Notes: generated by a model not told the origin, from the sequence alone. Counted from the first letter of the stretch, positions 9,199 through 64,000 are shown. The stretch is DNA of 64,000 nucleotides from an uncultured Gammaproteobacteria bacterium (GCA_964486065.1 CAZAKN010000004.1:15705-79704), one strand, 5' to 3'. Made by a program: numbers and translations.

Positions 9199-9206
9199 AT
9201 TTTTAT

Positions 9207-33025: not shown

Positions 33026-33056
33026 CTAAGACTAGTTTAGATTGGACAGTTACCAT

Positions 33057-33092
33057 AGAAAACCGTTCCCGCCGTAAGGCGGGGCGGTTTTT
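33057..33092 (+). terminator. rho-independent terminator
   Basis: cccgcc-gtaa-ggcggg(gcgg) stem + TTTTTGTTTT. Confidence 0.6.
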
Positions 33093-33392
33093 GTTTTATA
33101 AATAAAGCTATGAGTTATCCACATTTTTAAAAACTTGTTGAAGAAATTCAACAAGTTTTTTTAGTTAACTGATTTTTTTTGTAAAAATTAAATGTTTTTT
33201 TGTTGATAGTTTTTGTCAAAATCTGTTTTTATTTGAAGATTGTGTTTGCCATAATAAATGTAGAAGCGTTGGGGGATTGAGGAGATGTTTACAAAATAAA
33301 TAATTGCGAATCTCACCTTCCGCAAGTCAGAATGCAATAAATAATTTCAAGCGGTTGAAATTATAAATTAAGCTCTTAGAAGCAAAAAATGT

Positions 33393-34115: not shown

Positions 34116-34176
34116 TTGAATACTTAAAAACTAATTCCGCCGCGGGCATACCCGCGGCGGAGAAAGGAGGACCTTT

Positions 34177-36429: not shown

Positions 36430-36496
36430 ATGTGCATAAAGTCTTAGTTAAAGGTTGCTAAATGTGGTATAATAAAAAAGAACTTAATTTAGATAA

Positions 36497-39238: not shown

Positions 39239-39250
39239 TAAAATCAATTT

Positions 39251-40840: not shown

Positions 40841-42083
40841 TATGTCCGACAAAAAACAAATTAAAGGTTATGCTTTGGTCCGTGACAAGGATGGTGTTTT
40901 AAAATATTACAAGGACGGCAAGTTTTTTACCAAAAAAGAAATTCAAGAAGCCGTTGCGCGGAGCTCAAAAAAAGAATCAGAAAATTCGCCGAAAAAAGTT
41001 TTAAAACCGGTTTTAAGCTATCAAAAGAAATCAGAACCGAAAAAGAAAATTGATATTGAAGAGGCTTTGGAACAAGATTGGGCAGAACTTAATTCCGGCT
41101 CGGATTTGACCAAAGCAAGAGAAGAAGATAAAAAAAATATTGAAAAAAAAGTCCAAGAAGTCATAAAAAGATTGAAGATTTCTTTTAGCGATGAAAAGAT
41201 CAAACAAAGATTTATCAATATTTTGATCACTTATTTCCGAGGCATCAGATCCCGCAAAGAAATAGAATATGCTTTGGCTTTGCCCAAGATGAGTGGAGGT
41301 TTGGAAATATCGGGAGAAAAAGCTCGCCTGATTGGTAAGGTTTTGGAAAATTATCAAGAAGAAGTTCATAATGGCAGAAAAAAAACCGTGGAAAAAGTGG
41401 AGCAAAAGCCGATAGTGAGAAAGGAAACCGTTGATTTGCGCCACCGAATCGCGCCACCGCCACCGGCTGTAAATAGGGAAAAAAATGATGGCTTAAAAAA
41501 GTTGGATCAATTGATCAAGCAAGAGAGCGCCCAGCAATATGTTTTCAGCAAAAATAAGGTAAAATCGGTTTCTGAGCCGGCGGAACGCTCATCTTCTATT
41601 AAACAACAAACAAAAAACAAAGAATTGTCGCGAAATAGTCGTATTGAAAAACAAAAAATGAAAACCATGATCAAACCGAAACCGGAAAAACCTTCCTTAA
41701 AACAAAGTGACGCAAAAGAGCGACCGGTGATGAATGATGTAAAAAGAGCTTCGCGATATTTGACCGGACCTTTGGAAGAATTGGAATACATGGATTTAAA
41801 AGGTTTTCGTTTACTTGGAAAAACCAATGACGCGATGATTGACGCCATGAAAAACAAGTTGAATATACTGGTCGAGCAATCATTGCCCCAAAAAATACAA
41901 GGAATCAAAGCATGGAGAAGATCCCCGGTTTTTCAATTGTATTTGGACATGAATTTACAAGGGATTCGTGAAGATAAATCTTTGCAAGAAGTGATTGAAG
42001 CGCGACAATTCGCCAATCAAGAAACGCTTTCTTTGAGCGAATATGAAACAATTGGTCAATTAAACACCATTTACACCATATGA
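40833..42083 (+). CDS. hypothetical protein (T4SS-like cluster)
   Basis: 416 aa, lysine-rich; overlaps neighbours by 8 and 4 nt. Confidence 0.5.
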   Translation: MNNMSDKKQIKGYALVRDKDGVLKYYKDGKFFTKKEIQEAVARSSKKESENSPKKVLKPVLSYQKKSEPKKKIDIEEALEQDWAELNSGSDLTKAREEDKKNIEKKVQEVIKRLKISFSDEKIKQRFINILITYFRGIRSRKEIEYALALPKMSGGLEISGEKARLIGKVLENYQEEVHNGRKKTVEKVEQKPIVRKETVDLRHRIAPPPPAVNREKNDGLKKLDQLIKQESAQQYVFSKNKVKSVSEPAERSSSIKQQTKNKELSRNSRIEKQKMKTMIKPKPEKPSLKQSDAKERPVMNDVKRASRYLTGPLEELEYMDLKGFRLLGKTNDAMIDAMKNKLNILVEQSLPQKIQGIKAWRRSPVFQLYLDMNLQGIREDKSLQEVIEARQFANQETLSLSEYETIGQLNTIYTI

Positions 42084-42550
42084 AGCAGTTTTTAGTACCG
42101 CAATTTATTGATGTGGAAGACAAAATACTTGGGCCGATAACCATGAGGCAATTTATTTTAATGTTAGTATCGGCGCTTTTATTGTTTATTTTATACAAAT
42201 TGCTTTCATTTTTTTACTTTATCGCGGCCGGACTTTTGGATTTGGGAATGTTCGCGACTTTGGCTTTCGCCAAAATTAATGGTCGTCCGATTCATTTTTT
42301 TCTGTTGAACTTTTTGCAAACTTCACGAAGACCCAATTTTCGCGTTTGGAGTAAATCCGCTTTCGTGCGTGATGTGCAAGATGAAAAATCGGAGATTAAA
42401 GAAAAAACAAAACAAAAGAAAAACAAAGAACCTATTTCAGGATCACGATTGCAAGATGTATCATTGGTTGTAAACACGGGAGGGTTATATGAAGGAGAAA
42501 ATGAAGATTTTACCGCGGAAGAAAGATTAAAAGAAAAGCCTATCGGTTAA
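42080..42550 (+). CDS. PrgI-family (VirB3-like) small membrane protein
   Basis: N-terminus VPQFIDVEDKILGPITMRQFILMLV + two TM helices matches the Gram-positive PrgI pattern (vPkdl..K..fgLTkRQ). Confidence 0.55.
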   Translation: MKQFLVPQFIDVEDKILGPITMRQFILMLVSALLLFILYKLLSFFYFIAAGLLDLGMFATLAFAKINGRPIHFFLLNFLQTSRRPNFRVWSKSAFVRDVQDEKSEIKEKTKQKKNKEPISGSRLQDVSLVVNTGGLYEGENEDFTAEERLKEKPIG

Positions 42551-42577
42551 TATATTTAAAAATGATATTAGTTTCAT

Positions 42578-43258
42578 ATGCAAGATAAAAAATTGGCGGG
42601 CAATAAAATTCAGCAATCCACTCAGCTGTTCATGGATATTGCCGAAATTAAAAACGATACCGTTATTTTAAAAAACGGAACTTTAAGAGCGGTTCTCATG
42701 ACCTCCAGTATTAATTTCGCTTTGAAATCAGACGATGAGCAAGAGGCGTTGGTTTCCAGTTATGTCAGTTTTTTGAATTATCTTGATTTTCCTATCCAGA
42801 TAGTGGTGCAATCGCGCAAATTGGATATCGGTAATTATTTAAACCGTATTTCCGAAGCGGAAAAAGAATTGACCAATGATTTATTAAAAAGAGTGGTGGT
42901 TAATTACAAAGCATATGTTAAAGAATTGGTTGATTTGGGTGATATTATGACCAAGCAATTTTTTATCGTAGTGCCTTACAGTCCGGTGGAAAATAAATCC
43001 GAAGGATTTTGGTCCAAGTTGGGAGCGGTTTTCACTCCCGCGAAAATAGTGCGTTTAAAACAAGAAAAATTTAAAAAGTATTCGCATGCGTTGGATCAGC
43101 GCGTCAATCATGTGAAAATGAATATTTCCAGCTTGGGATTGACCACGGCCAGATTGGACACGCAAAGTTTGATAGAGCTTTATTACAATGTATATAATCC
43201 TCATTTGGCACAAACGCAAAAAATGGTGGATACGGATAAATTGCGAATAGAAGAATAA
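42578..43258 (+). CDS. VirB4/TrsE-like conjugative ATPase, N-terminal domain fragment
   Basis: ...RAVLMTSSINFALKSDDEQEALVSSYVSFLNYLDFPIQIVV... matches N-terminal region of Gram-positive VirB4 homologs; ends at TAA in same frame as next ORF. Confidence 0.65.
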   Translation: MQDKKLAGNKIQQSTQLFMDIAEIKNDTVILKNGTLRAVLMTSSINFALKSDDEQEALVSSYVSFLNYLDFPIQIVVQSRKLDIGNYLNRISEAEKELTNDLLKRVVVNYKAYVKELVDLGDIMTKQFFIVVPYSPVENKSEGFWSKLGAVFTPAKIVRLKQEKFKKYSHALDQRVNHVKMNISSLGLTTARLDTQSLIELYYNVYNPHLAQTQKMVDTDKLRIEE

Positions 43259-43270
43259 TTCAAATATTAT

Positions 43271-45175
43271 ATGTTTAAAACATCGGATATTAATAAAAAA
43301 TCTCTGCTTTCAGAAAAAAAAGAAGAAAAACCAGAGATTAAGGAAGAAGAAAAACAAAAACAAATCGCTCAAAAATCAGCAGAATCGCAAAAAGCTTTGG
43401 AGCAGGAAAAAACATATCGCAAAGGTATAACTTCGGTTTTGGATATTGTCGCGCCGGATGCAATGGAAATAAAACCCAGTTTGATCCATCTCGGCGATAG
43501 GGTGGCCAGAACTATGTTTATTATGGGGTATCCGAGATATATTTCCGTGGGCTGGTTTTCACCGATTTTGAATTACAGTGCGGCTCTTGATGTGAGTATG
43601 TATTTTTATCCCATGGAATCGGAAGTGGTTTTAAAACAGTTGAAAAACAAAGTTGGTATTTTGCAGGCGACTTTGGCCACGGACGCGGAAAAAGGCGCTC
43701 CTCGCGACCCATTGAGAGAAACCGCTTTGCGTGATATTGAAAAATTGCGTGATGATTTAACTCAAGGTATAGAAAAATTTTTTCAATTCGGTTTATACAT
43801 CACTTTGTATGAAAAAGATGAAGAAAAACTTGATATGCTGACAGCGGACATTGAATCTTTGTTGGGATCAAGGTTGATTTTTTCCAAACGCGTGCTTTAT
43901 CAAGCCGAACAAGGTTTCAATTCCTGTATTCCGCTCGGTAATGATGAGCTTATGATTACCGCCAATTTGAATTCTTCTCCCATTGCCGCGTCTTTTCCTT
44001 TTATTTCTTCCGATTTAACTTCTGATGAAGGAATTTTGTTCGGAATTAATCGTCACAATAACAGTTTGATAATTTTTGATCGTTTTTCTTTGCAAAACGC
44101 TAATGCTTGCGTTTTTGCGACTTCCGGTGCCGGTAAAAGTTATACCATTAAATTGGAAGTTTTGCGTTCCATGATGCTTGGTACGGATGTTATCATTATT
44201 GATCCGGAAAAAGAATACAAAAATTTATGTGACGCGGTGGGCGGAACTTATGTAAATATTTCTTTAAATTCGGATGTGAAGATCAATCCTTTTGATTTAC
44301 CTCGCAAAGTCGGAGATATGTCAACGGAAGATATTATCCGTAGCGCGGTTATTTCATTGAAAGGACTCCTGAGAATCATGCTTGGCGAGTTGACCTTTCA
44401 AGAAGATTCTTTGCTGGATCGCGCTTTGATTGAAACTTACGCCAAAAAAGACATCACCGCGGACAGTGATCTGTCAAAAGTGGAACCGCCGACCATGATT
44501 GATTTGTATCAAGTTTTGGATGGCATGGAAGGCGCGGATGATCTGGCTTTGCGACTTAAGAAATTCACGGATGGAACTTTTTCCGGTTTGTTCACTTCGC
44601 CGACAAATGTGGAGATGAATAATCAATTGGTTATTTTTTCAGTTCGTGATCTGGAAGACGAATTGCGTCCCATGTCCATTTATTCAATTGTCAATTACAT
44701 TTGGAATGTGGTGCGTTCGGAAATGAAAAAAAGGATTCTGGTGATTGATGAAGCTTGGTGGCTAATGCAACATGAAGATTCAGCCAGATTTATTCACGCT
44801 TTGGTGAAACGGTGTCGTAAATATTATCTCGGTGTTACCACCATTACACAAGATGTTAATGATTTTTTGCTTTCACAATACGGTCAAGCCATTGTTACTA
44901 ATTCGGCCATGAAAGTTTTACTTAAACAATCCAACGCCTCCATTGATCTTTTGCAAAAGACTTTTATGTTGACCGAAGGTGAGAAATATTTACTGTTGGA
45001 AAGTAATGTGGGTGAAGGCATCTTTTTTGCGGGTAATCGTCACGCGGCCATTCGCGTGGTGGCTTCAACCTTGGAAGATCGTCTGGTAACCTCCGATCCG
45101 CGACAACTTTTGGAAGAAGAAAAGCGTAAAAAAAAGAAAAAACAAGAATTGGAAGAAGCCGAAGGCGCGGTTTAA
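43271..45175 (+). CDS. VirB4/TrsE-like conjugative ATPase, central + ATPase domain
   Basis: ...HLGDRVARTMFIMGYPRYISVGW...; Walker A FATSGAGKSYT; Walker B ILVIDEAWWLM. Confidence 0.8.
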   Translation: MFKTSDINKKSLLSEKKEEKPEIKEEEKQKQIAQKSAESQKALEQEKTYRKGITSVLDIVAPDAMEIKPSLIHLGDRVARTMFIMGYPRYISVGWFSPILNYSAALDVSMYFYPMESEVVLKQLKNKVGILQATLATDAEKGAPRDPLRETALRDIEKLRDDLTQGIEKFFQFGLYITLYEKDEEKLDMLTADIESLLGSRLIFSKRVLYQAEQGFNSCIPLGNDELMITANLNSSPIAASFPFISSDLTSDEGILFGINRHNNSLIIFDRFSLQNANACVFATSGAGKSYTIKLEVLRSMMLGTDVIIIDPEKEYKNLCDAVGGTYVNISLNSDVKINPFDLPRKVGDMSTEDIIRSAVISLKGLLRIMLGELTFQEDSLLDRALIETYAKKDITADSDLSKVEPPTMIDLYQVLDGMEGADDLALRLKKFTDGTFSGLFTSPTNVEMNNQLVIFSVRDLEDELRPMSIYSIVNYIWNVVRSEMKKRILVIDEAWWLMQHEDSARFIHALVKRCRKYYLGVTTITQDVNDFLLSQYGQAIVTNSAMKVLLKQSNASIDLLQKTFMLTEGEKYLLLESNVGEGIFFAGNRHAAIRVVASTLEDRLVTSDPRQLLEEEKRKKKKKQELEEAEGAV

Positions 45176-54265: not shown

Positions 54266-54356
54266 GGAGAGGTGGCTGAGTGGTCGAAGGCGGCGGTCTT
54301 GAAAACCGTTGAGGGTTCATAGCCCTCCGTGGGTTCGAATCCCACCCTCTCCGCCA
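54266..54356 (+). tRNA. tRNA-Ser (anticodon UGA), long variable arm, CCA encoded
   Basis: GGAGAGG acceptor ... anticodon loop CTTGAAA ... GGTTCGAATCC T-arm ... CCTCTCC-G-CCA. Confidence 0.85.
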
Positions 54357-54552: not shown

Positions 54553-54641
<89 letters not shown>

Positions 54642-54881
54642 TTTTAATATTTTTGTTGTTGGCTCCGCTAGGGGAAGGAAAGAAATGTTAAGTTGATGAA
54701 ATATATAGTGTAAATGAGTTAGACGAAATGACGCTCACTTACATTGTGCAAAATAATTACATCGCACAACAGCGTGTATGAGATTAAGAAAAATGTGCGT
54801 TAATAGTATTCCAAAGTTGCACTTACTTTGCCATTTTTCCAAAATAAAAACCTCTTAAAAAATAATAATTAAATAAACTTT

Positions 54882-55442
54882 ATGTCACAAACAACAAAAA
54901 TTATACTTGCGGTAATCGCAGTTGTGATAATGGTGATTTTGGCTGTGTTGATCGCCGGTCAAACCGGTTTCTTTGCAAAAGATAAAATTATTGAAAGCGA
55001 TCCATTAATTTATTCCGTGGAAGGTATTGCTGCTTCTGTTAATAAAAAAGCGGTTTCTTTTGATTATACCGCGGAACAATTAGTCGCAATGGCGCGAGAA
55101 TGCGGTCATGATATTGATCAAGACTATATCAATGATTTGGTGGCCAAGTTCGCCGGAACCGATAAACTTGTTTATGAATTTGAATATCAAGGCGAAAGTC
55201 AAAATCCCGACACTTACACGGTTACATTATTGCCAAACAAGCCCGATTACGCTTCATTTGAGCAGTTTGAAAAAGATTTTGATATTTGTTCAGCGGGTGA
55301 AGATGCTTATCCGCATATGTTGAATGATGATTGGCTTGTTTTTGTCAGTTCATGCGGGACAGGTTATGAGGACGATTCCGGTAAACCGGTCGGTTGCCAA
55401 GAGATCCGTGAAGCTGTTGAATCAAGTTTGAAACTGAAATAG
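54882..55442 (+). CDS. hypothetical membrane-anchored protein
   Basis: 186 aa, N-terminal TM; terminator 55511-55535 downstream. Confidence 0.45.
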   Translation: MSQTTKIILAVIAVVIMVILAVLIAGQTGFFAKDKIIESDPLIYSVEGIAASVNKKAVSFDYTAEQLVAMARECGHDIDQDYINDLVAKFAGTDKLVYEFEYQGESQNPDTYTVTLLPNKPDYASFEQFEKDFDICSAGEDAYPHMLNDDWLVFVSSCGTGYEDDSGKPVGCQEIREAVESSLKLK

Positions 55443-55577
55443 TAATAGGGAATAGGTGATAGTTTTACCGTTATAAATTTACCAATTATAATTTGATAAA
55501 TAGCAATTAAGGAAACGGAAAACCGTTTCCTTTTTAATTAAAAAAGCTCGCGCGAAGACGCGAGCTTTAAAATCTGT

Positions 55578-56006
55578 TTAGAAAGCAGGCACATTGAAGA
55601 TTTCCGGTGGGGCTTTCGTGAGCATGCAGGTGGCCGGAGCTTTCATGTCGGGATTGTCAAGGAAATAGTATTCTCCGATCCAGATGTCGCCTACTTTTTT
55701 GGCGAAAACATATTGAATCCTTTCATCCAAGTGGAGGTATTTCTTTATGAATTTCAGCTGATTGTTTTTTAAAACAATATTTGAAAGTTTTGCCTCTCCG
55801 TGAATATCGTGAGTTTGTCCTTGCCAGTTGTCAAAAGGAAAATCAAAGGCGCTGGCATTGGCGTCGGGAATGATGCCTTGAAACATGAATCGGTACGGTG
55901 TGTCAACATTCACGAAACCGGCCACATTACCGTTTTCGTCCAAATCAGGATACATTTCCGACATCAGTCGTTGAAAGAAAAAACCTTGGATGAAATATGC
56001 TTTCAT
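55578..56006 (-). CDS. hypothetical protein
   Basis: 142 aa ORF with minus-strand terminator hairpin at 55547-55566. Confidence 0.45.
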   Translation of the reverse strand: MKAYFIQGFFFQRLMSEMYPDLDENGNVAGFVNVDTPYRFMFQGIIPDANASAFDFPFDNWQGQTHDIHGEAKLSNIVLKNNQLKFIKKYLHLDERIQYVFAKKVGDIWIGEYYFLDNPDMKAPATCMLTKAPPEIFNVPAF

Positions 56007-56130
56007 GAGAATCTCCCACTATGTTTGGTTAATGAACAGTGATGAAACCTTACATAAATGATGAATAAATGTCAATAATGTGGAGGTATTTTTGCGCTAA
56101 ATAATTGCTGTTTATTTAAGCGCGTTCCGC

Positions 56131-56160
56131 TTTATGTTATAATAAAGTTGTAATAATATT
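56131..56160 (+). repeat. 28-nt direct repeat, left copy (TTTATGTTATAATAAAGTTGtAATAATA); right copy at 63456-63483
   Basis: 27/28 identity between the two copies; each contains an extended -10-like TGTTATAAT. Confidence 0.6.
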
Positions 56161-56165
56161 GAAGC

Positions 56166-56195
56166 CCAGCCGTATGTTCGGCTGGGCGTTTTTAT
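56166..56195 (+). terminator. rho-independent terminator immediately after left repeat copy
   Basis: gcccagccg-tatgtt-cggctgggc + TTTTT. Confidence 0.6.
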
Positions 56196-56392
56196 ATACT
56201 AAAAAACCGGCAGATAACCGAGGAGCATAGAATGGTGTATATAGGTCATTCTACAACGGATTCAAGAGAGTATTTATTTCTTGGAGAGAGATAAAAAATT
56301 CCCTTGAGTTTGTTGTTGCTCCGCGAATGTCTACCGGCTTCGCGAATAGTTTTATTTGTTATACCATATATATTTATAAAATTCATTCCAAA

Positions 56393-56472
56393 TTTTCCGT
56401 TTCGGCCTTTTGGCCTCATCAGTGCTGATACACATCAGCAGACAGAAGGAAGTTTTTTGTTGAGAAACTTCC
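56393..56472 (-). ncRNA. type III hammerhead self-cleaving ribozyme (copy A) plus conserved 5' hairpin
   Basis: minus-strand: GGAAGTTTctcaacaaaAAACTTCC-TTCTGTC|TGCTGA-tgtgta-TCAGCA-CUGAUGA-GGCC-aaaa-GGCC-GAAAC-GGAA; canonical core, G10.1-C11.1, GUC cleavage triplet. Confidence 0.85.
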
Positions 56473-56617
56473 GAAAACTCGTAATCCAATCCCGAAGTGC
56501 GTTCGGGACACCGGTAACCCTACCGGATTTGAAAGAACGATGCTTCTGAGTTGACCTCCACTCTGAAGCGGTAGAGGAGTGTTCTGTTAAAGGTCAAACA
56601 CATAAAACCTTTCAGAT

Positions 56618-58741
56618 CTAGTGGCTACCCCATTTTAGCTTCAAGGCGTCCAGGGCGGATTCCATGCTCTGGTCATCGGTTTCATCCGAATCTTGAGCCG
56701 TGTTATCCGACACCTTGCCTTTGGCGCTACAGGTCGAGCAGGTGATTTCGAGCGTTCCGCCGGACTTGTATGACCGCATCTCACTCTTGGTCACTCGCTC
56801 CTTACATCCGCAGGTGCACTTGAAGTAGCGACCGCCGATGAAGGTGAAGTTACCATTATCTTGAGTCGTTTCCTTAATGTGCTCTGCCAATTCTTCCTCC
56901 GCGAACTTCCTTAGGCGAAGATTGATGTTCCACCCGCCCCACTTTTCGTAGGCGAGAGCTTCAATCATGCCGTTGGAGGTGCGCTTGGATGCGACGACCT
57001 GTGCGTCGCGACCTTCCGTGTACTGATCGAACGGCTTGTTCCAGTTCACCAGTCGGGAGATGCGATGATCATCCTGACAGATCTGGATACCGTATTCGCC
57101 AGTCATGGAGAGGTAAGTGCTTTCGTCGTAGACGAGCTTCTCACCGCAGGCCGGACAGTAGGGGAAAGCACTTGCGGCTTCGGCGATCACTTTGGCCTGA
57201 CGCTCGGCAGCCTCGGGGTCGAGTCCGAAGGAATTCTCGGTGGTACCGATATCCTCCAATTCGATCCGTCGGACAGCTTCGCGCTGGGCTTCGGTGAGAC
57301 CGTTGACGGGCATCTTCGCCACGATGAACTCGCTGGAGCCGGCGATGTCTCGCATAGTCCCGCAAGACCACTTGAGAGCCAGCTCATCCTCGTTAACATA
57401 GTTCCAACGATAGTTGCCATCGCTCTTGTAACGACATACATCATCGGAATCACGATCACGAAGCGATCCATCGGGTCGGATGACCCAGCCATCACCATTG
57501 CCACTCATACCGCCTCGGCGATGCCACGTCTCGAAGTTGATCAGGATTTCTCCACCATCCACTCGAGCCTGACGCTGTGCGATCCGGTCTTGCGCCTGTT
57601 GCCAGACAGTTTCGACCTTCTCACTCTTCGCTTTGGCGTCCGCGTATGATCCAACGGCCAGTGCTTCTTCAGCCTCTTGGATGAGCTTGCGTGCCTCCTT
57701 GATCTCCGAGTTGACGAAGCCCTTGTCGTCGAGGGAAGCGATCTTCCCTTCGAGAGTAGTCTTCGCTTCTTCGACGATCGCCTTGGTGCTCTCGTGCTCA
57801 CCGCCGATCTCGGTCTTCGCCGCTTCCATCGCCACCTTGAGTGCCTCGATCTTCTCCTCGATGTTATTCGAGGTCAGACCTTCGGCGTGCTCGCGAACGA
57901 GTTGCTCGTAACGGCCTTGGAGCGCATTACCCAGATCGGTGAAAGACCACCTGACATACCAGCCGGAGCTCTTCTCCTGCCACGGCTCCTCTTTAGGTAC
58001 TGCGAGGTTTTCCTCCACGGCTTTCTTCATGATCCCCTCGAGAGACTTTTGAGTTTCCTCAGTTGCCTTCTCTTGGGAATCTGCCAAGAAGATCTGCCAT
58101 TTGAAATACCCCGAGTACTTCTTGAGGCCGACGAATCCATTGATTGGGTCGCCGTTACCGTTTTCCGTACGGGTAATCTCGATGCTCGAGCCCACGCGAT
58201 CCAGCCAGCCGATGACCTTTGCAGTATCACTCGTATAGCTGGTTTCATGTTCACTGCGAGCCTCCGACCAGGATCGTTCGATCCGCGACTTCTCGAGCTT
58301 TTTCACCAATTCCGCGAAGGACTTGGCAGAGTGCCCGGAGCAACGAATCTCCACAGTGCGTCCGCTTGGGAGAATAACCGCTTCGACGGTCGTCTTGCGA
58401 GCGAATTCTTCCTCGACCGAGGTGCGGACATAAGTCTCACGGTAGTACTCCTTGCCGTACTCGATTTCCAGCGTAACGCCTTCAATCTCGACGGTATTGG
58501 GGTTATCAGTGATGACTAACTGCACCAGCTTGGGGTCAAGTTGCGGAAGTTTGAGGCTCTCGAAGTCAATCACTTCCATTGCAGAGCGTGCGCCATTAAG
58601 TCGTAAGACCAGCCAATCGCGCCATTCCGAATGTGTCATCAACTTGAAAATCTCTTTGCCCGCCCGAATGTTGAGCTGGCGGGCTTTTTCTTGTATCTGG
58701 CGGTTCTCAGTGATGACCGCCTGCAACATTTTTTGAGGCAT
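56618..58741 (-). CDS. large hypothetical protein with C-terminal Cys4 zinc-ribbon motifs (G+C-rich island)
   Basis: 707 aa; CPACGEK...CQDDH and CTCGCKER...CSTCSAKGK clusters near C-terminus; codon usage clearly G+C-rich unlike rest of window. Confidence 0.6.
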   Translation of the reverse strand: MPQKMLQAVITENRQIQEKARQLNIRAGKEIFKLMTHSEWRDWLVLRLNGARSAMEVIDFESLKLPQLDPKLVQLVITDNPNTVEIEGVTLEIEYGKEYYRETYVRTSVEEEFARKTTVEAVILPSGRTVEIRCSGHSAKSFAELVKKLEKSRIERSWSEARSEHETSYTSDTAKVIGWLDRVGSSIEITRTENGNGDPINGFVGLKKYSGYFKWQIFLADSQEKATEETQKSLEGIMKKAVEENLAVPKEEPWQEKSSGWYVRWSFTDLGNALQGRYEQLVREHAEGLTSNNIEEKIEALKVAMEAAKTEIGGEHESTKAIVEEAKTTLEGKIASLDDKGFVNSEIKEARKLIQEAEEALAVGSYADAKAKSEKVETVWQQAQDRIAQRQARVDGGEILINFETWHRRGGMSGNGDGWVIRPDGSLRDRDSDDVCRYKSDGNYRWNYVNEDELALKWSCGTMRDIAGSSEFIVAKMPVNGLTEAQREAVRRIELEDIGTTENSFGLDPEAAERQAKVIAEAASAFPYCPACGEKLVYDESTYLSMTGEYGIQICQDDHRISRLVNWNKPFDQYTEGRDAQVVASKRTSNGMIEALAYEKWGGWNINLRLRKFAEEELAEHIKETTQDNGNFTFIGGRYFKCTCGCKERVTKSEMRSYKSGGTLEITCSTCSAKGKVSDNTAQDSDETDDQSMESALDALKLKWGSH

Positions 58742-58819
58742 TCGTATCTCCTTTCGTGCCCGTGTCCCGCAACCAACTCTTGCGAGTGGTGCGGAACTTG
58801 GGCGTGGCAGGGTTTTTGG

Positions 58820-60766
58820 TCAGATACACATTTGACCGGCGAGCCAGTCGGCAAAAACCTCGGCCGCCTTCTCATGCTCCGGCGTCGCGACCTGCTCTTC
58901 TTTGACCTGCTGGCCGTTGAAGTGGGTGCGAGTGGTCGAAATGCATGAGTCCTTCTCGCTGTCGAATTCGGGGTTGAGCCCTTCCTCGGTATAAGCAAGC
59001 TGGGGAGCGACTTCGGCGAGCCATGCCGGATCGACTTTCGACGCCAATTCGATAAGACGCAGAGTTAGCATGCCTCTGCTCGTCTTGATTTGGAGGTCAA
59101 AAGGCTTCCCGACCAGCCATTTGGCGTTGCGGACAAGTGAAGCTGTCCCCAGTTCACGGTCAACTGTTTCACCATTTCGGTAAACATTGTATTGCCCGTG
59201 ATACAGGTGATCAACCATTCCCGCGCAGACAGCCTTGAGGATGTCCTCGCGTTTTCCGGTTGAACCGAATCGGAAGTACTTCTTGACGGCATTGGCGAGA
59301 TGATGTCGGATTTCTTTTGCCCGGAAATATTTCCGGATGCCGATACCTTTCTCGCGCATTTCGTCTTTCGACATCGAATTAGCCAACTGCCAAACGGCGA
59401 GTTGACCCATGACATCGGACTCATTTTCATGAGTCACCATGTATCTCCAATCCGGCCTTTCCGGACGGTTGCGACTCGGAGGCGGAACGGTAATTCCGCT
59501 TACTTCCATGATGGCTGCGACTGTCAGAACATCGTCTATGACGCCGAGCCGATCAGCTTCTACTAACATCCGAGCATACTTCACCGAAACAGGAAGGCGG
59601 TTTACCAGCCTGCCGATGGGCGTAACTTCCCCGGACTCAGTCATGCAACCGAGCCCGATCAGCGTCTGCCTGGCATCCTTGATATCCGACTTTGAGGGTT
59701 GATGGAAAAAATCCATCTCCTCCATGTCGAATCCGGCAATCGCTAAACGCAGAACAGTCTGATCAAGGCGTTTGCGCATGATTTCTGCGACCGGAAACTC
59801 ACGACGCGAACCACCGCAGTGGTCGATGTAGATTCCTTCTTTAGTCCGACCGGCGCGTCCTTTTCGTTGAGTGGCATCAGCGATGGAAATTGGCTTGAGA
59901 TACAAGCCTTCAACGCCATCCACCAGCTCGATTCGGCGCTCCATTCCGGAATCCACGACCGCATCGATGTCGTCGATCGTCACACTGGTCTGCGCGACAT
60001 TCGTCGACACTACGCATTTCGGACGGCCGTAATGTTTGAAACACTTGGCCTGATCCTCCGGCGTGAGTTGTCCGTGGAGAGGAAGGATTTCCGCATCCAC
60101 TCCCGTTTCTTTGATCTCGAAGATCGTCTCTTCGATTTCCTGCTTGCCCGGTTGGAACACTAGGACGTTCCGACCCTCGCGAATGAGTGCCGTTACATCA
60201 TCAACCAACCGATATGCAGGTTTACGGGATTCCACCGGGAAGAGTCGACCGGGAACCGAGATCACCGGCGCGCCGTTGTAGTAGGCGGACAGCTTTTCGG
60301 CTTCCATGGTTGCGCTCATAATCACAACCTTGAAATCGACGCCTTCCTGGATCTGATGCTTGGCCCATGCCACGAGGACTTCCATATTCTCGTTCCATTC
60401 ATGGACTTCGTCCAGAACCAGTACGCCTTTGTTCTGCCCCATCAGTTCGCGCACCAGCGCAAGTCCGTCGGTGCAGAACAAGCAACGGGTTGCAGGCGAG
60501 TCCTGCCGATCCACCGCAGTGCGGTAACCGACAGTGCCACCAAGATCCTTGCCGATTTCTTCGGCTACGCGCTGTGCCACCGTTCGGGCGGCCAGTCTGC
60601 GTGGCTGGGTCACGACAAGATCGTAACCTTCATCCAGCAGGTACTGGAGCACTTGCGTGCTTTTCCCTGCCCCGGTTTCGGCCGTGATGACGGTTACAGG
60701 ATTTTTGCGAACCGTTTCGACGATTGTCTTGCGGAACGCAGAGATAGGAAGTTCTTGATTGTTCAT
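58820..60766 (-). CDS. DEAH-box ATP-dependent helicase (HrpA/HrpB-like)
   Basis: motif I TGAGKSTQV, Ia VVTQPRRLAARTVAQR, DEVH (LVLDEVHE), SAT (MSATM), motif VI QRKGRAGR, HA2-like C-terminal region. Confidence 0.85.
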   Translation of the reverse strand: MNNQELPISAFRKTIVETVRKNPVTVITAETGAGKSTQVLQYLLDEGYDLVVTQPRRLAARTVAQRVAEEIGKDLGGTVGYRTAVDRQDSPATRCLFCTDGLALVRELMGQNKGVLVLDEVHEWNENMEVLVAWAKHQIQEGVDFKVVIMSATMEAEKLSAYYNGAPVISVPGRLFPVESRKPAYRLVDDVTALIREGRNVLVFQPGKQEIEETIFEIKETGVDAEILPLHGQLTPEDQAKCFKHYGRPKCVVSTNVAQTSVTIDDIDAVVDSGMERRIELVDGVEGLYLKPISIADATQRKGRAGRTKEGIYIDHCGGSRREFPVAEIMRKRLDQTVLRLAIAGFDMEEMDFFHQPSKSDIKDARQTLIGLGCMTESGEVTPIGRLVNRLPVSVKYARMLVEADRLGVIDDVLTVAAIMEVSGITVPPPSRNRPERPDWRYMVTHENESDVMGQLAVWQLANSMSKDEMREKGIGIRKYFRAKEIRHHLANAVKKYFRFGSTGKREDILKAVCAGMVDHLYHGQYNVYRNGETVDRELGTASLVRNAKWLVGKPFDLQIKTSRGMLTLRLIELASKVDPAWLAEVAPQLAYTEEGLNPEFDSEKDSCISTTRTHFNGQQVKEEQVATPEHEKAAEVFADWLAGQMCI

Positions 60767-60795
60767 TTTTTCTCCTTTGTACCCTTGGTTTTTAC

Positions 60796-60810
60796 CGTGG
60801 GCGTAAAGTT
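60796..60810 (-). promoter_or_regulatory. conserved 15-nt upstream motif AACTTTACGCCCACG (minus-strand sense), copy 1, ~30 nt upstream of helicase RBS
   Basis: identical 15-mer also at 61144-61158 at the same distance from the 91-aa gene start, followed in both by CAAGGG...AAGGAG. Confidence 0.45.
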
Positions 60811-60840
60811 TGTGTATTTCGGTGGCTTCGGCACTGCGCC

Positions 60841-61116
60841 TCAGCTCACCATCTCTTTGAACTGCTCGTCTCCGTAGTCCCTGCGAATCATTGCAAGGAA
60901 CCTGGTGGCTTTGGCGTACTCACTGGCCAGACGAGCACCGAAGTGCTTGTCGGCGAGGTCGAACGCCTTTTCGTACGCCTGTGTCGGCGTCTCATTGCCA
61001 GCAATCTGGACGAACTGCTCGCACAGCTCCTTGTCAGACAGCTGGAGGATGGCCGAAGCTCTCCTCTCCAAGTCTTGTAGCTCCCGATTGGGAGACCTGT
61101 CCTGAGACTTCATCAT
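60841..61116 (-). CDS. hypothetical small protein (91 aa; island)
   Basis: ORF with AAGGAGG RBS; G+C-rich codon usage like neighbours. Confidence 0.45.
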   Translation of the reverse strand: MMKSQDRSPNRELQDLERRASAILQLSDKELCEQFVQIAGNETPTQAYEKAFDLADKHFGARLASEYAKATRFLAMIRRDYGDEQFKEMVS

Positions 61117-61143
61117 TCACCTCCTTGCCCTTGATCTTGCGAT

Positions 61144-61158
61144 CGTGGGCGTAAAGTT
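61144..61158 (-). promoter_or_regulatory. conserved 15-nt upstream motif AACTTTACGCCCACG, copy 2 (preceded by TTGACA)
   Basis: see 60796-60810. Confidence 0.45.
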
Positions 61159-61213
61159 GCCTATGTTGTCAAAGATACGATCCCAGCATTTAACAAGCTT
61201 TAGATACTGGGGA

Positions 61214-61294
61214 CTTTCTGTTTCGTCCTTTCGGACTCATCAGCATGGACAACACATCCATGGACAGAAGCAAGTTTTTTTGAGAGAAACTTGC
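61214..61294 (-). ncRNA. type III hammerhead self-cleaving ribozyme (copy B) plus conserved 5' hairpin
   Basis: minus-strand: GCAAGTTTctctcaaaaAAACTTGC-TTCTGTC|CATGGA-tgtgttg-TCCATG-CUGAUGA-GUCC-gaaa-GGAC-GAAAC-AGAA; every helix differs from copy A by compensatory substitutions. Confidence 0.85.
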
Positions 61295-61427
61295 AAAACT
61301 CTTTGTAATCATCTCGAGAATAAGTCTCGGAATCCTCTCCCCCTAGAGGGAATTTTTAATTGCGCCTTTATTTATCCTTGAGGAAAGGGGAAAGGCTAAA
61401 CCTTGTTCGAGTTGATAGTATTGGTGG

Positions 61428-62345
61428 TTAGCCGAGCCGGGACTCGAGCGCCGGGAGGATCGTCTCGTTCCAGACCTTCTCGTTGCAGTGCAGGAGAAAG
61501 GCCACGTTCGAGAGCAGACCCGCCTGTGGCGACGTTTCCGTCCCTTCGGGCACGAGGTTACGCAGATCGATCTCGTCCTGATGCTTGCGCACCACAGCGA
61601 GGGAGTACTGCGTACCGTGACCGCCCGGCTTGCCCGCGATCGGACCGAAGTCCTTACGAACGACCGTGACCTTGGCGCCTTCCGATTCCATCCCACGCGT
61701 GAGCGTGTTCAGATCGGAGCGCTCGGCGCCCACCGAGTCGATGAGGACGACACCCGTGCAGGGCTTGCTCATCTTCTCGGCAAGCAGTCGCTCGGCCTCG
61801 GCCACACCGGCCTCGTACTCCGCCACGCGTCCCTCGAGGTTCGCGCGCGCCTCGGTGTCACCCGAAGCGGCCTTGACGAACGAATCGAACAGCTCGTTTT
61901 TCGCGTTTTCGCTTACTTCCGGCCGCTCTTTGTTGAAGGGGGGCAGGGTTGCGAGAGCGCGGACGGCCGTCCAACCAAGCTCCGTCAGCGTCTCCGCGGA
62001 CTGCTTCGGCCGGACATCGAATACTTCGGCGTCGTCATCCATCCCTTCGTACGAGACACCCACGGCCTTCATGGCCGCGACGAGACCATCGTAGTCGGGG
62101 TCGGCGACGATCACGTCGTAGTCCGAGAACTCTCCAAGCGTGATCAGGGTCGCGCATCCGGGAGCCGTTTTGCGGTCGACGATCTGGGCATTGTCACCCA
62201 AGATCTGCTCGATGGTGTCGGCGGCCTCGGGGTTGCGACCCTCACCCTTGTGGTGGTCACGGATCGTCACGGAGATCCCTTTCTCGACGAGCGACTCGAT
62301 GGTCGCCACGAGATCGGGGGTGGCGCCGGTGTCCACGAAGAGCAC
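61428..62345 (-). CDS. hypothetical protein (305 aa, GTG start; island)
   Basis: long G+C-rich ORF; start uncertain (an ATG with good RBS at 62454 is in another frame). Confidence 0.45.
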   Translation of the reverse strand: MLFVDTGATPDLVATIESLVEKGISVTIRDHHKGEGRNPEAADTIEQILGDNAQIVDRKTAPGCATLITLGEFSDYDVIVADPDYDGLVAAMKAVGVSYEGMDDDAEVFDVRPKQSAETLTELGWTAVRALATLPPFNKERPEVSENAKNELFDSFVKAASGDTEARANLEGRVAEYEAGVAEAERLLAEKMSKPCTGVVLIDSVGAERSDLNTLTRGMESEGAKVTVVRKDFGPIAGKPGGHGTQYSLAVVRKHQDEIDLRNLVPEGTETSPQAGLLSNVAFLLHCNEKVWNETILPALESRLG

Positions 62346-62747
62346 CTTCTGAGCATCGGCCCGGAATGGCCTCGAGTACGTTGGCGGAATCGCTGGCGGA
62401 AAAGAATTTGGAGAAAAAAACGGTCGTGGTGTTGATGGTGGTCTGGATCATTTCTGATCTCCTTCCGTAATTGTGGCCGTGGTTTCTAACCTTGGCCAGA
62501 TTTTTGGATTGTCCTCTACATAGTGCACCATGCACCAGATTCAGACGTACCACTCCCCATGAGTAGCGTTCTGACTACAGTATTTCCCAGCACTCGGTAT
62601 TATTCTCAATACATATCTCGTAAAAGTGATTATTGTTAACACTTACGAAATAAATGAAAAAATTACTGAGTGCTGGGTGAATATAAGCAGAAAGCTACTC
62701 ATGGAATTTTAACCAGCACTCAACTTAGTCCTAAATTTGCTTTATAA

Positions 62748-63008
62748 TATAGATGTATATATTACTTCTATGTCTTACAAAACAAACAGGGTTTATATTA
62801 TGGCTCAACGAATAATCTGAAGCGTCGTCTTAAAGAACATAATCTTAAACAATCTCAAGGTTCGCAATGGAAACTTGTTTATTACGAAGCGTATTTGTCA
62901 GAAACAGACGCTCGTAATCGTGAATCTCAGATCAAACATCATGGTCAAGCCAAAAGTTGGCTCAAGGAACGAATTAAGAATTCCTTGTCCAGCATCTCAC
63001 GGATGTGA
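62748..63008 (+). pseudogene. GIY-YIG nuclease-family small protein, apparently lacking an in-frame start (frameshifted N-terminus)
   Basis: frame-0 translation ...YYFYVLQNKQGLYYGSTNNLKRRLKEHN...WKLVYYEAY...ESQIKHHG... matches the small GIY-YIG family; ATG at 62770 (MSYKTNRVYIMAQRII*) is in a different frame. Confidence 0.5.
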
Positions 63009-63455
63009 GTGCTGGAGGTAAGACCAAGTTGAGTGCTGGTTGTACCTCATTTTAAAAGAACATCTGTGATTCCCCGCGTGGCTAGCAATAAAAAAAGGTA
63101 ATAAATGTTGTAATGCTCTTCAATGCGTCGGAGAGTACCACAACACTTACTACCTTTATATTATATAACTGACCGAAATCGGTTATAAAATAAGTGTGTA
63201 TGTTTGCAATGTTTACCCTGCACTTTTATAGTGCACGGGTCTCTCTCCAGCATTGCTTCCTCATTTATATACGGAATGAGGAACTAGTTTTTAAATCTTT
63301 CATCTTGATTTTGAATTATATAATATTTACGCATTCTTGTCAAATCTTCGGGGTAATGTATACATACCTTTTGTATTTTTTGCACTAAAATAAGGAATTA
63401 TTATTGTGAAGGGGAAATTCAGGATTGCCGAATTTTATTAAACGAGATTATATAT

Positions 63456-63483
63456 TTTATGTTATAATAAAGTTGGAATAATA
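63456..63483 (+). repeat. 28-nt direct repeat, right copy; doubles as promoter (-10 TGTTATAAT) for downstream AhpD-like gene
   Basis: see 56131-56160; -10 lies ~30 nt upstream of ATG 63499. Confidence 0.6.
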
Positions 63484-63498
63484 AATAAAAAAGTAATT

Positions 63499-64000
63499 AT
63501 GTCTCTTCAACCCATTGTACACTTGGTGGCGGATGATGAAGCCAAAAATCAGGCCAAAGAAATTTATGAACAAATAAAAAAGTCCACCGGCAAAGTCCCG
63601 AAATGGATGCGAGTAATGGCCAATTGCGAAGATACCTTACACGGTTTTTTCTTGTTATTTAAATCGGTTATGGATGATGCGCCGACCGATAAATTGCTTA
63701 AATGGAAAATAGCTTTCGCGGTATCGGAAGTCAATAAATGTGAGTATTGCGTCAGTGTTTCCAAAATGCAGTTGAAAAATTTGGGATTGAGTGAAGAAGA
63801 AATGACAGGCATGGAGAAAGCCGGAAATGAAAAAGAACGCGTTGCGCTGGAATATGCCGAAGCCACGGCCAAATGCGCTTATAAAATTGATCCTGAATTG
63901 ATAAAAAAGATGAAAGAAAATTTTACTGATGAGCAAATTGTGGAAATTACCAGCGTTGTCGGTTTGTTCAGCTATATCAATCGTTTCAACGACGCATTAC
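63499..64000 (+). CDS. carboxymuconolactone decarboxylase / AhpD-like family protein (3' end beyond window)
   Basis: ...KWKIAFAVSEVNKCEYCVSV... CMD-family core with CxxC; ORF open to end of window. Confidence 0.65.
   Translation, partial: MSLQPIVHLVADDEAKNQAKEIYEQIKKSTGKVPKWMRVMANCEDTLHGFFLLFKSVMDDAPTDKLLKWKIAFAVSEVNKCEYCVSVSKMQLKNLGLSEEEMTGMEKAGNEKERVALEYAEATAKCAYKIDPELIKKMKENFTDEQIVEITSVVGLFSYINRFNDAL

What the first reader, a model, noticed from the sequence alone, without database searches (positions are those of the whole stretch)
56131..63487. Compositionally foreign ~6 kb gene block inside a 7.3 kb segment bounded by 28-nt direct repeats
Sampled 60-nt lines between 56.6 and 62.5 kb are 53-73% G+C, against roughly 32-50% in the rest of the window, and codon usage shifts accordingly. 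The block encodes, all on the minus strand:
- a DEAH/HrpA-like helicase;
- a 707-aa protein with C-terminal Cys4 ribbons;
- a 91-aa protein;
- a 305-aa protein.
It also holds both hammerhead copies and a GIY-YIG nuclease remnant. The segment is flanked by a near-identical 28-mer (TTTATGTTATAATAAAGTTGkAATAATA) at 56131-56160 and 63456-63483. The right copy is the promoter of the AhpD-like gene; the left copy is followed at once by a terminator. This looks like an orphaned promoter duplicate created by insertion, with the repeat acting as an attachment site or target duplication. Alternatives are lateral acquisition from a high-GC donor, or a chimeric metagenomic assembly join.
Basis: partly seen in the sequence, partly recalled or inferred. 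Interest (0 to 1): 0.75.

Follow-up and report, generated by a model that had tools for sequence, protein, structure and literature searches.

The report
Foreign ribozyme-punctuated helicase operon island
A GC-rich, laterally acquired operon sits in the promoter region of a host gene in a low-GC Patescibacteria (CPR) chromosome; it carries a two-piece HrpA-like RNA helicase bracketed by two hammerhead ribozymes, and this layout recurs in many CPR genomes, so it is a real but fairly ordinary island with an unusually consistent ribozyme-gene pairing.

Summary
Window 56.6-62.5 kb is 53-57% G+C against about 39% elsewhere, and GC3 is 0.68 against 0.39. The 28-mer occurs exactly twice. Two type III hammerheads lie 4822 nt apart on the minus strand.

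It is not a chimera. A Logan assembly is 100% identical over 54612-64000, across both junctions. The same GC-rich module also sits in at least five other low-GC CPR genomes.

Homology with independent copies (L025, L028) defines the unit as promoter to terminator, about 63343 to 56152. In order it holds:
- a perfect sigma-70 promoter;
- a leader hairpin;
- a DHH-like gene, frameshifted here;
- hammerhead 1;
- a 91-aa gene;
- a DEAH/HA2 helicase;
- a 707-aa protein whose N-terminal 400 residues resemble the HrpA C-terminal region, and which is fused to the helicase in L013;
- hammerhead 2;
- terminators.

The left 28-mer abuts the end of family homology, with a 7-nt overlap. The right copy is the native AhpD promoter but lies 112 nt beyond the last homology. 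Complete relatives end in about 90-nt inverted repeats that this copy lacks. No recombinase and no empty site were found.

So insertion with duplication of host promoter sequence is plausible. A dedicated attachment site is not supported. The hammerheads most likely process the operon mRNA.

The parts
54759..54824 (-). 67-nt relic resembling an element end (contains GTTGTGCGATGTAATTATTTT), 119 nt from tRNA-Ser(CGA)
   Evidence: 86.6% identical to L028 8114-8179. The motif GTTAGGCGATGT marks the ends of the elements in L025 and L028.
56131..56158 (+). Left copy of the 28-mer: a derived, orphan duplicate of the AhpD promoter. Its last 7 nt (AATAATA) overlap the end of element homology.
56164..56187 (.). 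G+C-rich terminator hairpin at the 3' end of the element, with its T tail on the + strand. It would stop the orphan promoter's transcript.
   Evidence: It is conserved in L025 with compensatory changes (GCCCAGCCG/CGGCTGGGC against GTCCAGCCG/CGGCTGGAC).
56207..56221 (-). Small hairpin followed by T6: candidate sense-strand terminator of the operon
   Evidence: Identical in L024 and L025.
56390..56479 (-). Conserved 8-bp hairpin plus type III hammerhead 2. Predicted cleavage is between 56441 and 56440.
   Evidence: Rfam 45.0 bits. Model R1 107.8 bits. Covariation.
56618..58741 (-). 707-aa protein. Its N-terminal 400 residues or so resemble the HrpA C-terminal region. It also has a conserved beta-rich core (WHRRGG...GDGWVIRPDG) and C-terminal Cys-rich ribbons.
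   Evidence: Foldseek top hit is 9gft_B HrpA. It is fused to the helicase in L013.
58820..60766 (-). DEAH/HA2 RNA helicase equal to the HrpA core
   Evidence: Pfam DEAD, Helicase_C, HA2. TIGR01967 positions 63-716, E 1.3e-89. PDB HrpA and Prp hits, E about 1e-72.
60841..61116 (-). 91-aa gene of unknown function
   Evidence: Homologues sit at the same position in L008, L009, L025 and L028.
61211..61301 (-). Conserved hairpin plus type III hammerhead 1. Predicted cleavage is between 61263 and 61262.
   Evidence: Rfam 49.1 bits. R1 106.1 bits. Covariation.
61428..62451 (-). Gene 1: weakly DHH-like phosphoesterase, frameshifted near 62360
   Evidence: tblastn against the intact 341-aa and 370-aa homologues. 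Weak DHH and RecJ hits.
62557..62704 (.). Element leader hairpin, split by a 92-nt MITE-like insertion (62586-62677) with CCCAGCACTC inverted ends
   Evidence: L001, L004 and L025 have the uninterrupted hairpin.
62711..63041 (+). Small element bounded by a 23-nt inverted repeat, carrying a decayed GIY-YIG gene (62811-63005). It is inserted into the operon leader.
63082..63299 (-). AT-rich leader conserved with L025 (80.7% identity) and L028
63315..63343 (-). Perfect sigma-70 consensus promoter (TTGACA, 17 nt, TATAAT) reading into the operon
   Evidence: 12 of 12 matches. The -35 element is conserved in L025.
63344..63455 (.). 112 nt of unassigned AT-rich DNA between the promoter and the right 28-mer
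   Evidence: No homology in any fetched copy.
63456..63483 (+). Right copy of the 28-mer: native extended -10 promoter of the AhpD/CMD-like gene (ATG at 63500)
   Evidence: AhpD relatives have a similar -10 region.

Best explanation
**What it is.** The segment is a laterally acquired operon-sized island in a low-GC Patescibacteria (CPR) chromosome. It belongs to a family of GC-rich mobile modules that circulate among CPR lineages.

**How it most likely works.**
- One promoter (63343-63315, minus strand) drives a polycistronic RNA.
- Two type III hammerheads, each preceded by a conserved hairpin, would cut that RNA at 61263|61262 and at 56441|56440.
- Cutting would separate the gene 1 mRNA from a 4822-nt RNA that encodes the 91-aa protein and a two-piece HrpA-like RNA helicase (a 648-aa core plus the 707-aa C-terminal-region protein).
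- That RNA would carry a 5'-OH end and a 2',3'-cyclic-phosphate end. The 3' trailer and terminators would be removed.

**How it got here.** This copy is a fragment running from promoter to terminator that lacks the family's terminal inverted repeats. It landed in the AhpD promoter region by an illegitimate or microhomology-assisted event that duplicated 28 nt of host promoter.

**Later changes.** Two small inverted-repeat elements were inserted and gene 1 was frameshifted. Both changes postdate divergence from the other copies compared; whether they arose in this host or earlier is not established.

**Shown:** composition, homology limits, ribozyme structure and covariation, gene order, and assembly integrity.

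**Inferred:** self-cleavage in vivo, the RNA end chemistry, helicase function, and the insertion mechanism.
For: **Foreign origin**
- GC and GC3 contrast with the host.
- The same module sits in other hosts: low-GC hosts L002, L008, L010, L024, L025, L027 and L028, and the 60% G+C hosts L001 and L004, where composition matches.
- Every genome hit with a CPR record title is Komeilibacteria, Paceibacterota, Saccharibacteria or Parcubacteria. L010 is the exception: it is titled Gammaproteobacteria, on a 1.0-Mb chromosome. There are no hits in viral contigs.

**Real junctions**
- L014 is 100% identical over 54612-64000.
- L016 is 100% identical over 55089-56849.
- L017 is a 97.4% variant that carries the left junction.

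**Unit limits**
- Homology to L025 and L028 runs from 63299 (promoter at 63343) to 56152.

**Hammerheads**
- The canonical core is present.
- A hammerhead pair or triplet flanks the helicase and 707-like genes in L001, L004, L002, L025 and L028; L008 also carries three copies.
- Across 15 copies, 97.6% of cells are paired and 18 of 24 pairs change on both sides. None of 500 shuffles reaches this.

**Split HrpA**
- The helicase matches TIGR01967 positions 63-716 of 1284.
- The only Foldseek match with high probability for both the full 707-aa model (E 1.4e-4, probability 1.0) and its N-terminal 405 residues (E 3.2e-3, probability 0.96) is E. coli HrpA in the disome structure 9gft.
- L013 has a fused 1466-aa ORF with a weak DUF3418 hit.
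- The HrpA C-terminal region is needed for binding and splitting collided ribosomes (PMC11419001).

**Precedent**
- Hammerheads flanking gene blocks in bacterial mobile DNA cleave polycistronic RNA in vitro and in E. coli (PMC3088659).
Against: - No transcript data exist, so cleavage is inferred.
- Hammerhead 2 is 3.5 bits below the Rfam gathering score.
- The HrpA C-terminal-region assignment rests on fold similarity with low TM scores (0.14-0.23). There is no sequence signal.
- The C-terminal 300 residues of the 707-aa protein have no known relative.
- Gene 1 is frameshifted, so this copy may be partly decayed.
- The helicase is dispensable in L025, where an 899-aa protein replaces it.
- The insertion mechanism is not established. 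The right boundary is 112 nt short of the repeat, no empty site was found, and 28 nt is long for a target duplication.
Confidence: 0.7

Rival explanations
1. A site-specific integrative element whose attL and attR are the two 28-mers. A tyrosine or serine recombinase, acting in trans or since lost, would have inserted a 7.3-kb circle into an attB inside the AhpD promoter.
For: - There is an exact 28-nt direct repeat with one mismatch, and none is expected by chance.
- The left copy abuts the element end.
- The island lies 1.5 kb from two tRNA-Ser genes.
- L001 and L004 carry the module a few kb from tRNA genes.
Against: - No recombinase is present in the segment or its flanks.
- Other copies have no 28-mer or equivalent direct repeat at their ends. 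Instead they have about 90-nt inverted repeats.
- The right repeat is 112 nt from the last element homology.
Confidence: 0.12
2. Assembly chimera: a high-GC contig from another organism joined to a low-GC contig through AT-rich repeats.
For: - There is a sharp composition change, and short repeats sit near both edges.
Against: - A Logan assembly of SRR7048224 is identical across both junctions.
- SRR7048223 reproduces the left junction.
- A 97.4% strain variant from SRR33304595 also carries the left junction.
- AT-rich leader and terminator sequences are conserved together with the GC-rich genes in L025 and L028.
- The same embedded arrangement occurs in at least five other assemblies.
Confidence: 0.02
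3. An RNA-level element. The 4822-nt hammerhead-to-hammerhead RNA would be circularised, for example by an RtcB-type ligase. It would then act as a stable circular mRNA or as a retrozyme-like mobile intermediate, with the HrpA-like helicase acting on its own RNA.
For: - Two hammerheads in the same orientation have identical 5' stem III strands (CUUCUGUC). Ligating the ends would therefore rebuild an intact ribozyme.
- In L002 the hammerheads lie in LTR-like direct repeats of about 270 nt with 90-96% identity.
- The cargo is an RNA helicase, with a DHH-like phosphoesterase next to it.
- Retrozymes use this layout (PMC4918200).
Against: - No reverse transcriptase or RNA-dependent RNA polymerase is present.
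- Homology between copies includes the promoter and terminator, outside the hammerheads, so spread is at the DNA level.
- Perreault et al. looked for circular or spliced products from bacterial multi-hammerhead loci and found none.
- In this window the two hammerhead regions share only about 90 nt.
Confidence: 0.08
4. An anti-phage defence or anti-defence cassette, with the helicase and the 707-aa protein as sensor and effector, carried on a CPR conjugative or integrative element.
For: - It lies in an island and spreads horizontally.
- It has a mosaic, rapidly shuffling architecture.
- The neighbourhood of L001 holds restriction-modification systems and a type IV secretion (T4SS) pilin gene.
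- Known bacterial hammerheads flank ardA.
Against: - PADLOC gives only generic helicase-core hits, such as Cas3 at E 5e-9. It gives nothing for the other three proteins.
- The best matches point to HrpA, a ribosome and RNA factor.
Confidence: 0.08

Closest known systems
Clustered hammerhead ribozymes flanking gene blocks in bacterial prophages and mobile DNA (Perreault et al. 2011, PMC3088659)
   Same: - Several hammerheads in the same orientation lie within one transcription unit of horizontally acquired DNA and bracket one or a few genes.
- The expected outcome is processing of a polycistronic RNA.
   Different: - There the flanked genes are 'not constant'. Here the pairing with a helicase and 707-like cassette is conserved across CPR classes, at 50-80% protein identity.
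- Every copy has an extra covarying 8-bp hairpin directly 5' of stem III.
- The hosts are Patescibacteria. There is no phage context and there are no viral-contig hits.
E. coli HrpA (DEAH/RHA helicase with a DUF3418 C-terminal region; rescues collided ribosomes, PMC11419001)
   Same: - The helicase aligns to HrpA positions 63-716.
- The next gene's product has HrpA as its top structural match.
- The two are fused in one relative into a 1466-aa protein close to HrpA's size.
   Different: - It is split into two genes.
- There is no sequence-level DUF3418 match.
- The 707-aa protein has an extra conserved beta-rich core and Cys ribbons of about 300 residues that HrpA lacks.
- It is carried on a mobile island rather than as a core gene.
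Retrozymes (eukaryotic non-autonomous retroelements with type III hammerheads in direct repeats, PMC4918200)
   Same: - Two type III hammerheads in direct orientation delimit a unit whose ends could be ligated into a circle.
- LTR-like repeats occur in the L002 copy.
   Different: - Retrozymes are 0.6-1 kb, non-coding, eukaryotic and mobilised by reverse transcriptase.
- This unit is 4.8 kb, protein-coding and bacterial, and it spreads as DNA that includes the promoter and terminator.
Genomic islands acquired by lateral transfer with direct-repeat borders
   Same: - The composition is atypical for the host.
- It is flanked by a direct repeat.
- It lies near tRNA genes.
- It shows decay: a frameshift and secondary insertions.
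   Different: - It is GC-richer than the host; from general knowledge, islands are more often AT-richer.
- There is no integrase.
- The repeat is a duplicated host promoter, not a tRNA 3' end.
- The family's native ends are inverted repeats.

Membership tests
Hammerhead ribozyme, type III (Rfam RF00008) | Score at or above the family gathering threshold (48.5 bits) | tested here: met
   The copy at 61215-61270 scores 49.1 bits. The copy at 56394-56448 scores 45.0 bits, below threshold, so it does not meet this criterion on its own.
Hammerhead ribozyme, type III (Rfam RF00008) | Conserved catalytic core (CUGAUGA ... GAAA, GUC cleavage triplet) with three helices, stem III open | tested here: met
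   Both copies have CUGAUGAG, CGAAAC and GUC. All three stems are supported by covariation across 15 family copies.
Hammerhead ribozyme, type III (Rfam RF00008) | Self-cleavage activity | not testable with these tools
   Needs in vitro transcription or RNA end mapping.
HrpA (TIGR01967 / NF008348; helicase core plus DUF3418) | DEAH helicase core with HA2 domains | tested here: met
   Pfam DEAD, Helicase_C, HA2_N and HA2_C. TIGR01967 positions 63-716, E 1.3e-89. PDB HrpA E 8e-72.
HrpA (TIGR01967 / NF008348; helicase core plus DUF3418) | Full-length equivalog score (722.75 bits) as a single polypeptide | tested here: not met
   301 bits. The protein stops where the HrpA core stops.
HrpA (TIGR01967 / NF008348; helicase core plus DUF3418) | DUF3418 C-terminal region | tested here: inconclusive
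   There is no Pfam or hhalign signal for the 707-aa protein. The fused L013 relative has a weak DUF3418 hit (E 0.002, 17 bits, below the cut-off of 25). HrpA is the top Foldseek hit, but with TM 0.14-0.23.
Integrase-mediated integrative island (attL/attR) | Recombinase gene in or next to the island | tested here: not met
   No integrase or transposase domain in any ORF from 54.8 to 64 kb.
Integrase-mediated integrative island (attL/attR) | Direct repeats at both edges of the foreign DNA | tested here: inconclusive
   The left repeat abuts the end of homology (56152/56158). The right repeat is 112 nt beyond it.
Integrase-mediated integrative island (attL/attR) | Empty site with a single repeat in relatives | tested here: inconclusive
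   No syntenic relative was found. The 142-aa flank gene is an ORFan, and AhpD relatives have other neighbours.
TIR-bounded form of this element family (as in L025 and L028) | About 90-nt terminal inverted repeats starting GTTAGGCGATGT | tested here: not met
   They are present in L028 (327-416 / 7947-8038) and L025. The window has neither, only a 67-nt relic at 54759-54824.
Retrozyme | Short non-coding unit between hammerhead-bearing LTRs, mobilised by reverse transcriptase, in eukaryotes | tested here: not met
   The unit is a 4.8-kb coding unit in a bacterium. No reverse transcriptase is present. Only about 90 nt are shared between the two hammerhead regions.
GIY-YIG nuclease (PF01541) | Complete catalytic domain in an open frame | tested here: not met
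   The score of 23.4 bits passes the cut-off, but only profile positions 21-74 are present, and the upstream part is out of frame or stopped. It is a pseudogene.

The most novel reading that the evidence does not exclude
The conserved hammerhead, HrpA-like cassette, hammerhead unit is an RNA-level device. Double self-cleavage would release a 4.8-kb RNA with 5'-OH and 2',3'-cyclic-phosphate ends. That RNA would then be ligated into a circular or end-protected mRNA. The encoded helicase and the neighbouring DHH-like phosphoesterase would act on that RNA or on its ribozymes. This would be a bacterial, protein-coding counterpart of retrozyme or viroid-like circular RNAs.
Probability: 0.08. Interest if true: 0.85.

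Novelty: new member of a known kind. Interest (0 to 1): 0.45.

Why it matters
Bacterial hammerheads have been known since 2011, but their roles remain unclear, partly because the genes they flank vary. Here the same ribozyme, with an added covarying hairpin, brackets the same two-gene RNA-helicase cassette in many CPR genomes. That gives a defined and testable system for asking why an operon would cut its own mRNA.

The finding also documents three further points:
- a recombinase-less, GC-rich mobile module that moves between CPR lineages of very different base composition;
- a split (sometimes fused) HrpA-like helicase in these reduced genomes;
- an insertion junction with a duplicated host promoter and 7-nt microhomology.

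As a genomic island, it is ordinary.

Tried and rejected
- **Empty-site search.** The 142-aa flank protein has no relatives beyond its own cluster. AhpD relatives at 78-84% identity show no conserved neighbourhood.
- **28-mer as a common promoter.** There are only two copies in the 64-kb window plus the extra 4.7 kb of L014. The rest of the genome could not be checked.
- **Flanking direct repeats in other copies.** None is convincing.
- **Sequence and profile comparison of the 707 family with PDB and with an Acinetobacter HrpA.** Nothing was found.
- **PHROGs and PADLOC.** These gave only generic helicase hits.
- **Viral contigs.** No relatives.
- **Mobilising enzyme next to the complete copies.** The L028 329-aa and L025 137-aa proteins have no homologue in the window; they were not scanned here, and the precomputed Pfam column lists no domain for them.
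- **tRNA genes beside other copies.** None in L002, L008, L010, L024, L025, L027 or L028, so tRNA targeting is not a family trait.
- **AFDB fold library.** It was unavailable.
Full report
**1.

- 1-kb windows from 57 to 62 kb are 53-57% G+C. The other 58 kb range from 34% to 46%.
- Concatenated element genes have GC3 0.676, against 0.385 for ten host genes.
- The 28-mer TTTATGTTATAATAAAGTTG(T/G)AATAATA occurs at 56131-56158 and 63456-63483 and nowhere else at up to 3 mismatches. None is expected in shuffles.
- A strong hairpin with a T tail follows the left copy at 56164-56187.
- Rfam finds two type III hammerheads on the minus strand: 61215-61270 (49.1 bits, cut-off 48.5) and 56394-56448 (45.0 bits).
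- The host is a bacterial chromosome with GyrB, FtsW, MurG, ThiI, FtsX and three tRNAs.
- Relatives of its genes and of the island genes are labelled Patescibacteria.

**2. It is not an assembly artefact**

- The 707-aa protein is also encoded on a Logan contig from SRR7048224. That contig is 100% identical to the window over 54612-64000 and so spans both junctions. It probably comes from the same reads as the NCBI contig, but from a different assembler.
- A contig from SRR7048223 is identical over 55089-56849.
- A 97.4% strain variant from SRR33304595 carries the left junction up to 56265.

**3. Gene content, corrected**

All genes are on the minus strand.

- *Gene 1.* It starts at ATG 62451 and is frameshifted near 62360 relative to the intact 341-aa and 370-aa homologues. 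It gives only weak DHH and RecJ signals.
- *Hammerhead 1.*
- *A 91-aa gene.* It is conserved in L008, L009, L025 and L028.
- *A 648-aa DEAH/HA2 helicase.* It matches TIGR01967 HrpA positions 63-716 of 1284 (E 1.3e-89, below the equivalog cut-off) and solved HrpA and Prp structures at E about 1e-72.
- *A 707-aa protein with no Pfam family*.
- *Hammerhead 2.*

**4. The 707-aa protein belongs with the helicase**

- Its family is small: 41 clusters among 5.8 billion.
- In L013 it is fused to the helicase in one 1466-aa ORF. That fusion gives a weak DUF3418 hit (E 0.002, below cut-off).
- An AlphaFold model (pLDDT 83.7) has E. coli HrpA in the disome structure 9gft as its only significant Foldseek match (E 1.4e-4, probability 1.0).
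- A separate model of residues 1-405 (pLDDT 81.5) again ranks 9gft_B first (E 3.2e-3, probability 0.96).
- TM scores are low (0.14-0.23), and sequence and profile comparisons find nothing. I rate the 'split HrpA' reading at about 0.7.
- In E. coli the HrpA C-terminal region binds collided ribosomes and is required for splitting them (PMC11419001).
- The conserved beta-rich core (WHRRGG..GDGWVIRPDG..) and the Cys ribbons of residues 400-707 have no known relative.

**5. The ribozymes are a conserved feature of the module**

- Both window copies share an 8-bp hairpin directly 5' of stem III.
- A covariance model built from six copies finds hammerheads bracketing the cassette as follows:
  - the helicase and 707-like pair in L001, L004, L002 and L028;
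  - the 91-aa gene and an 899-aa protein in L025;
  - after the 707-like gene in L024 and L027;
  - three copies in L008.
- Across 15 copies, 97.6% of cells pair and 18 of 24 pairs show changes on both sides. None of 500 shuffles reaches the observed values, and sliding the register drops pairing to 37-46%. The alignment was fitted to the model, which favours the structure somewhat.
- Predicted cleavage after C61263 and after C56441 would release a 4822-nt RNA.
- Multiple hammerheads flanking gene blocks in bacterial mobile DNA are known, and they cleave polycistronic RNA in vitro and in E. coli. The authors noted that the flanked genes vary, and they found no circular products (PMC3088659).
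- No paper in the library links hammerheads with CPR bacteria.

**6. Limits of the foreign DNA**

- L001 and L004 (host about 60% G+C) share 62581-56239 with the window.
- Two closer copies in unrelated low-GC contigs, L025 and L028, extend this:
  - Upstream, they share the AT-rich leader 63082-63299 and the -35 element of a perfect sigma-70 promoter (63343-63315, 12 of 12 matches).
  - Downstream, they share everything through the terminator hairpin, with compensatory stem changes in L025, up to 56152.
- The unit therefore runs from promoter to terminator. Its 3' end lies 7 nt inside the left 28-mer, sharing AATAATA with it.
- The 331-nt GIY-YIG element with inverted repeats (62711-63041) and a 92-nt MITE with the same CCAGCACTC ends (62586-62677) are insertions into the leader, relative to L025, L004 and L001.

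**7. What the 28-mer means**

- AhpD relatives have a similar -10 region upstream of the gene. The right copy is therefore native and the left copy derived.
- Deleting 56159-63483 would restore a compact divergent intergenic region.
- These points favour an insertion that duplicated host promoter sequence.
- Against a dedicated attachment site:
  - there is no recombinase;
  - other copies show no comparable flanking repeat;
  - the family's complete form in L028 and L025 ends in about 90-nt imperfect inverted repeats beginning GTTAGGCGATGT, which the window copy lacks;
  - 112 nt between the promoter and the right 28-mer are unassigned.
- A 67-nt relic of an end-like sequence lies at 54759-54824, beside tRNA-Ser. 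The island may once have been larger and then been rearranged.
- No empty site could be found.

**8. Origin of the composition**

- Copies in low-GC hosts keep a high GC3: 0.676 in the window and 0.695 in L025.
- The more divergent L002 copy is 0.377, against a host value of 0.253.
- The L001 copy matches its 60% G+C host.
- This fits transfer from a high-GC CPR lineage followed by amelioration.
- The module is mosaic. The window helicase is nearer to the L002 and L028 type, while its flanks are nearer to L001 and L004.

**9. Verdict**

- This is a genuine laterally acquired island.
- Its interesting content is a hammerhead-punctuated operon that encodes a split HrpA-like helicase, conserved across CPR bacteria.
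- Ribozyme processing of the operon RNA is the most likely function.
- Circular-RNA and defence readings remain possible but unsupported.

Noticed in passing
window 60796-60808 and 61144-61156 (minus strand): An exact 13-mer, CTTTACGCCCACG, lies about 30 nt upstream of the ribosome-binding sites of the helicase and 91-aa genes. Related motifs precede genes in L008 (four copies) and L025. It may be an element-specific 5' UTR or promoter signal.
   Followed up: partly
window 62586-62677 and 62711-63041: Two small elements share CCAGCACTC inverted ends: a 92-nt MITE and a 331-nt unit with a decayed GIY-YIG gene. In this window they occur only here (five motif hits, all within 62587-63039).
   Followed up: partly
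window 63315-63343 (minus strand): A perfect 12-of-12 sigma-70 consensus promoter lies about 860 nt upstream of gene 1 and diverges from the AhpD promoter.
   Followed up: partly
window 29357-45175: A run of large + strand ORFs has no Pfam family (1222, 913 and 529 aa). It also holds a lamin-tail-domain protein and a VirB4/TraG-like ATPase (43271-45175). This may be a type IV secretion or conjugation-like cluster.
   Followed up: no
window 55578-56006 (minus strand): The 142-aa flank gene is an ORFan. Its only relative among 5.8 billion clusters is its own 99% cluster. The neighbouring 186-aa gene also has no family. Both lie between the island and the end-like relic at 54759-54824.
   Followed up: partly
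L002 7764-8038 and 12057-12329; also 4419, 5146, 5911: In the Komeilibacteria copy the two hammerheads lie in LTR-like direct repeats of about 270 nt (90-96% identity). These repeats also hold terminator hairpins and a promoter. An 80-nt repeat ending in a ribosome-binding site and ATG precedes three further ORFs.
   Followed up: partly
L010 5887-5944, 7447-7504, 10718-10775: A 58-nt G+C-rich hairpin repeat occurs three times between genes of a related module that has no detected hammerhead. It may be an alternative punctuation element.
   Followed up: no
L025 3157-5856: In this copy the helicase and the N-terminal half of the 707-aa protein are replaced by an unrelated N-terminal region, giving an 899-aa protein. 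It still lies between the two hammerheads.
   Followed up: partly
L001 19485-19574 and 12985-13323: A third hammerhead of the same subtype lies 7 kb downstream of the module. A type IV secretion (T4SS) pilin gene (PF18895, 33 bits) follows the module.
   Followed up: no
L028 8159-8191 / 9201-9233: A second unit bounded by inverted repeats, carrying a 329-aa gene of unknown function, sits directly after the hammerhead element. It starts with the same GTTAGGCGATGT motif.
   Followed up: partly
window 54266-54356 and 54553-54640: Two tRNA-Ser genes (anticodons TGA and CGA) lie 200 nt apart, just left of the island region.
   Followed up: no
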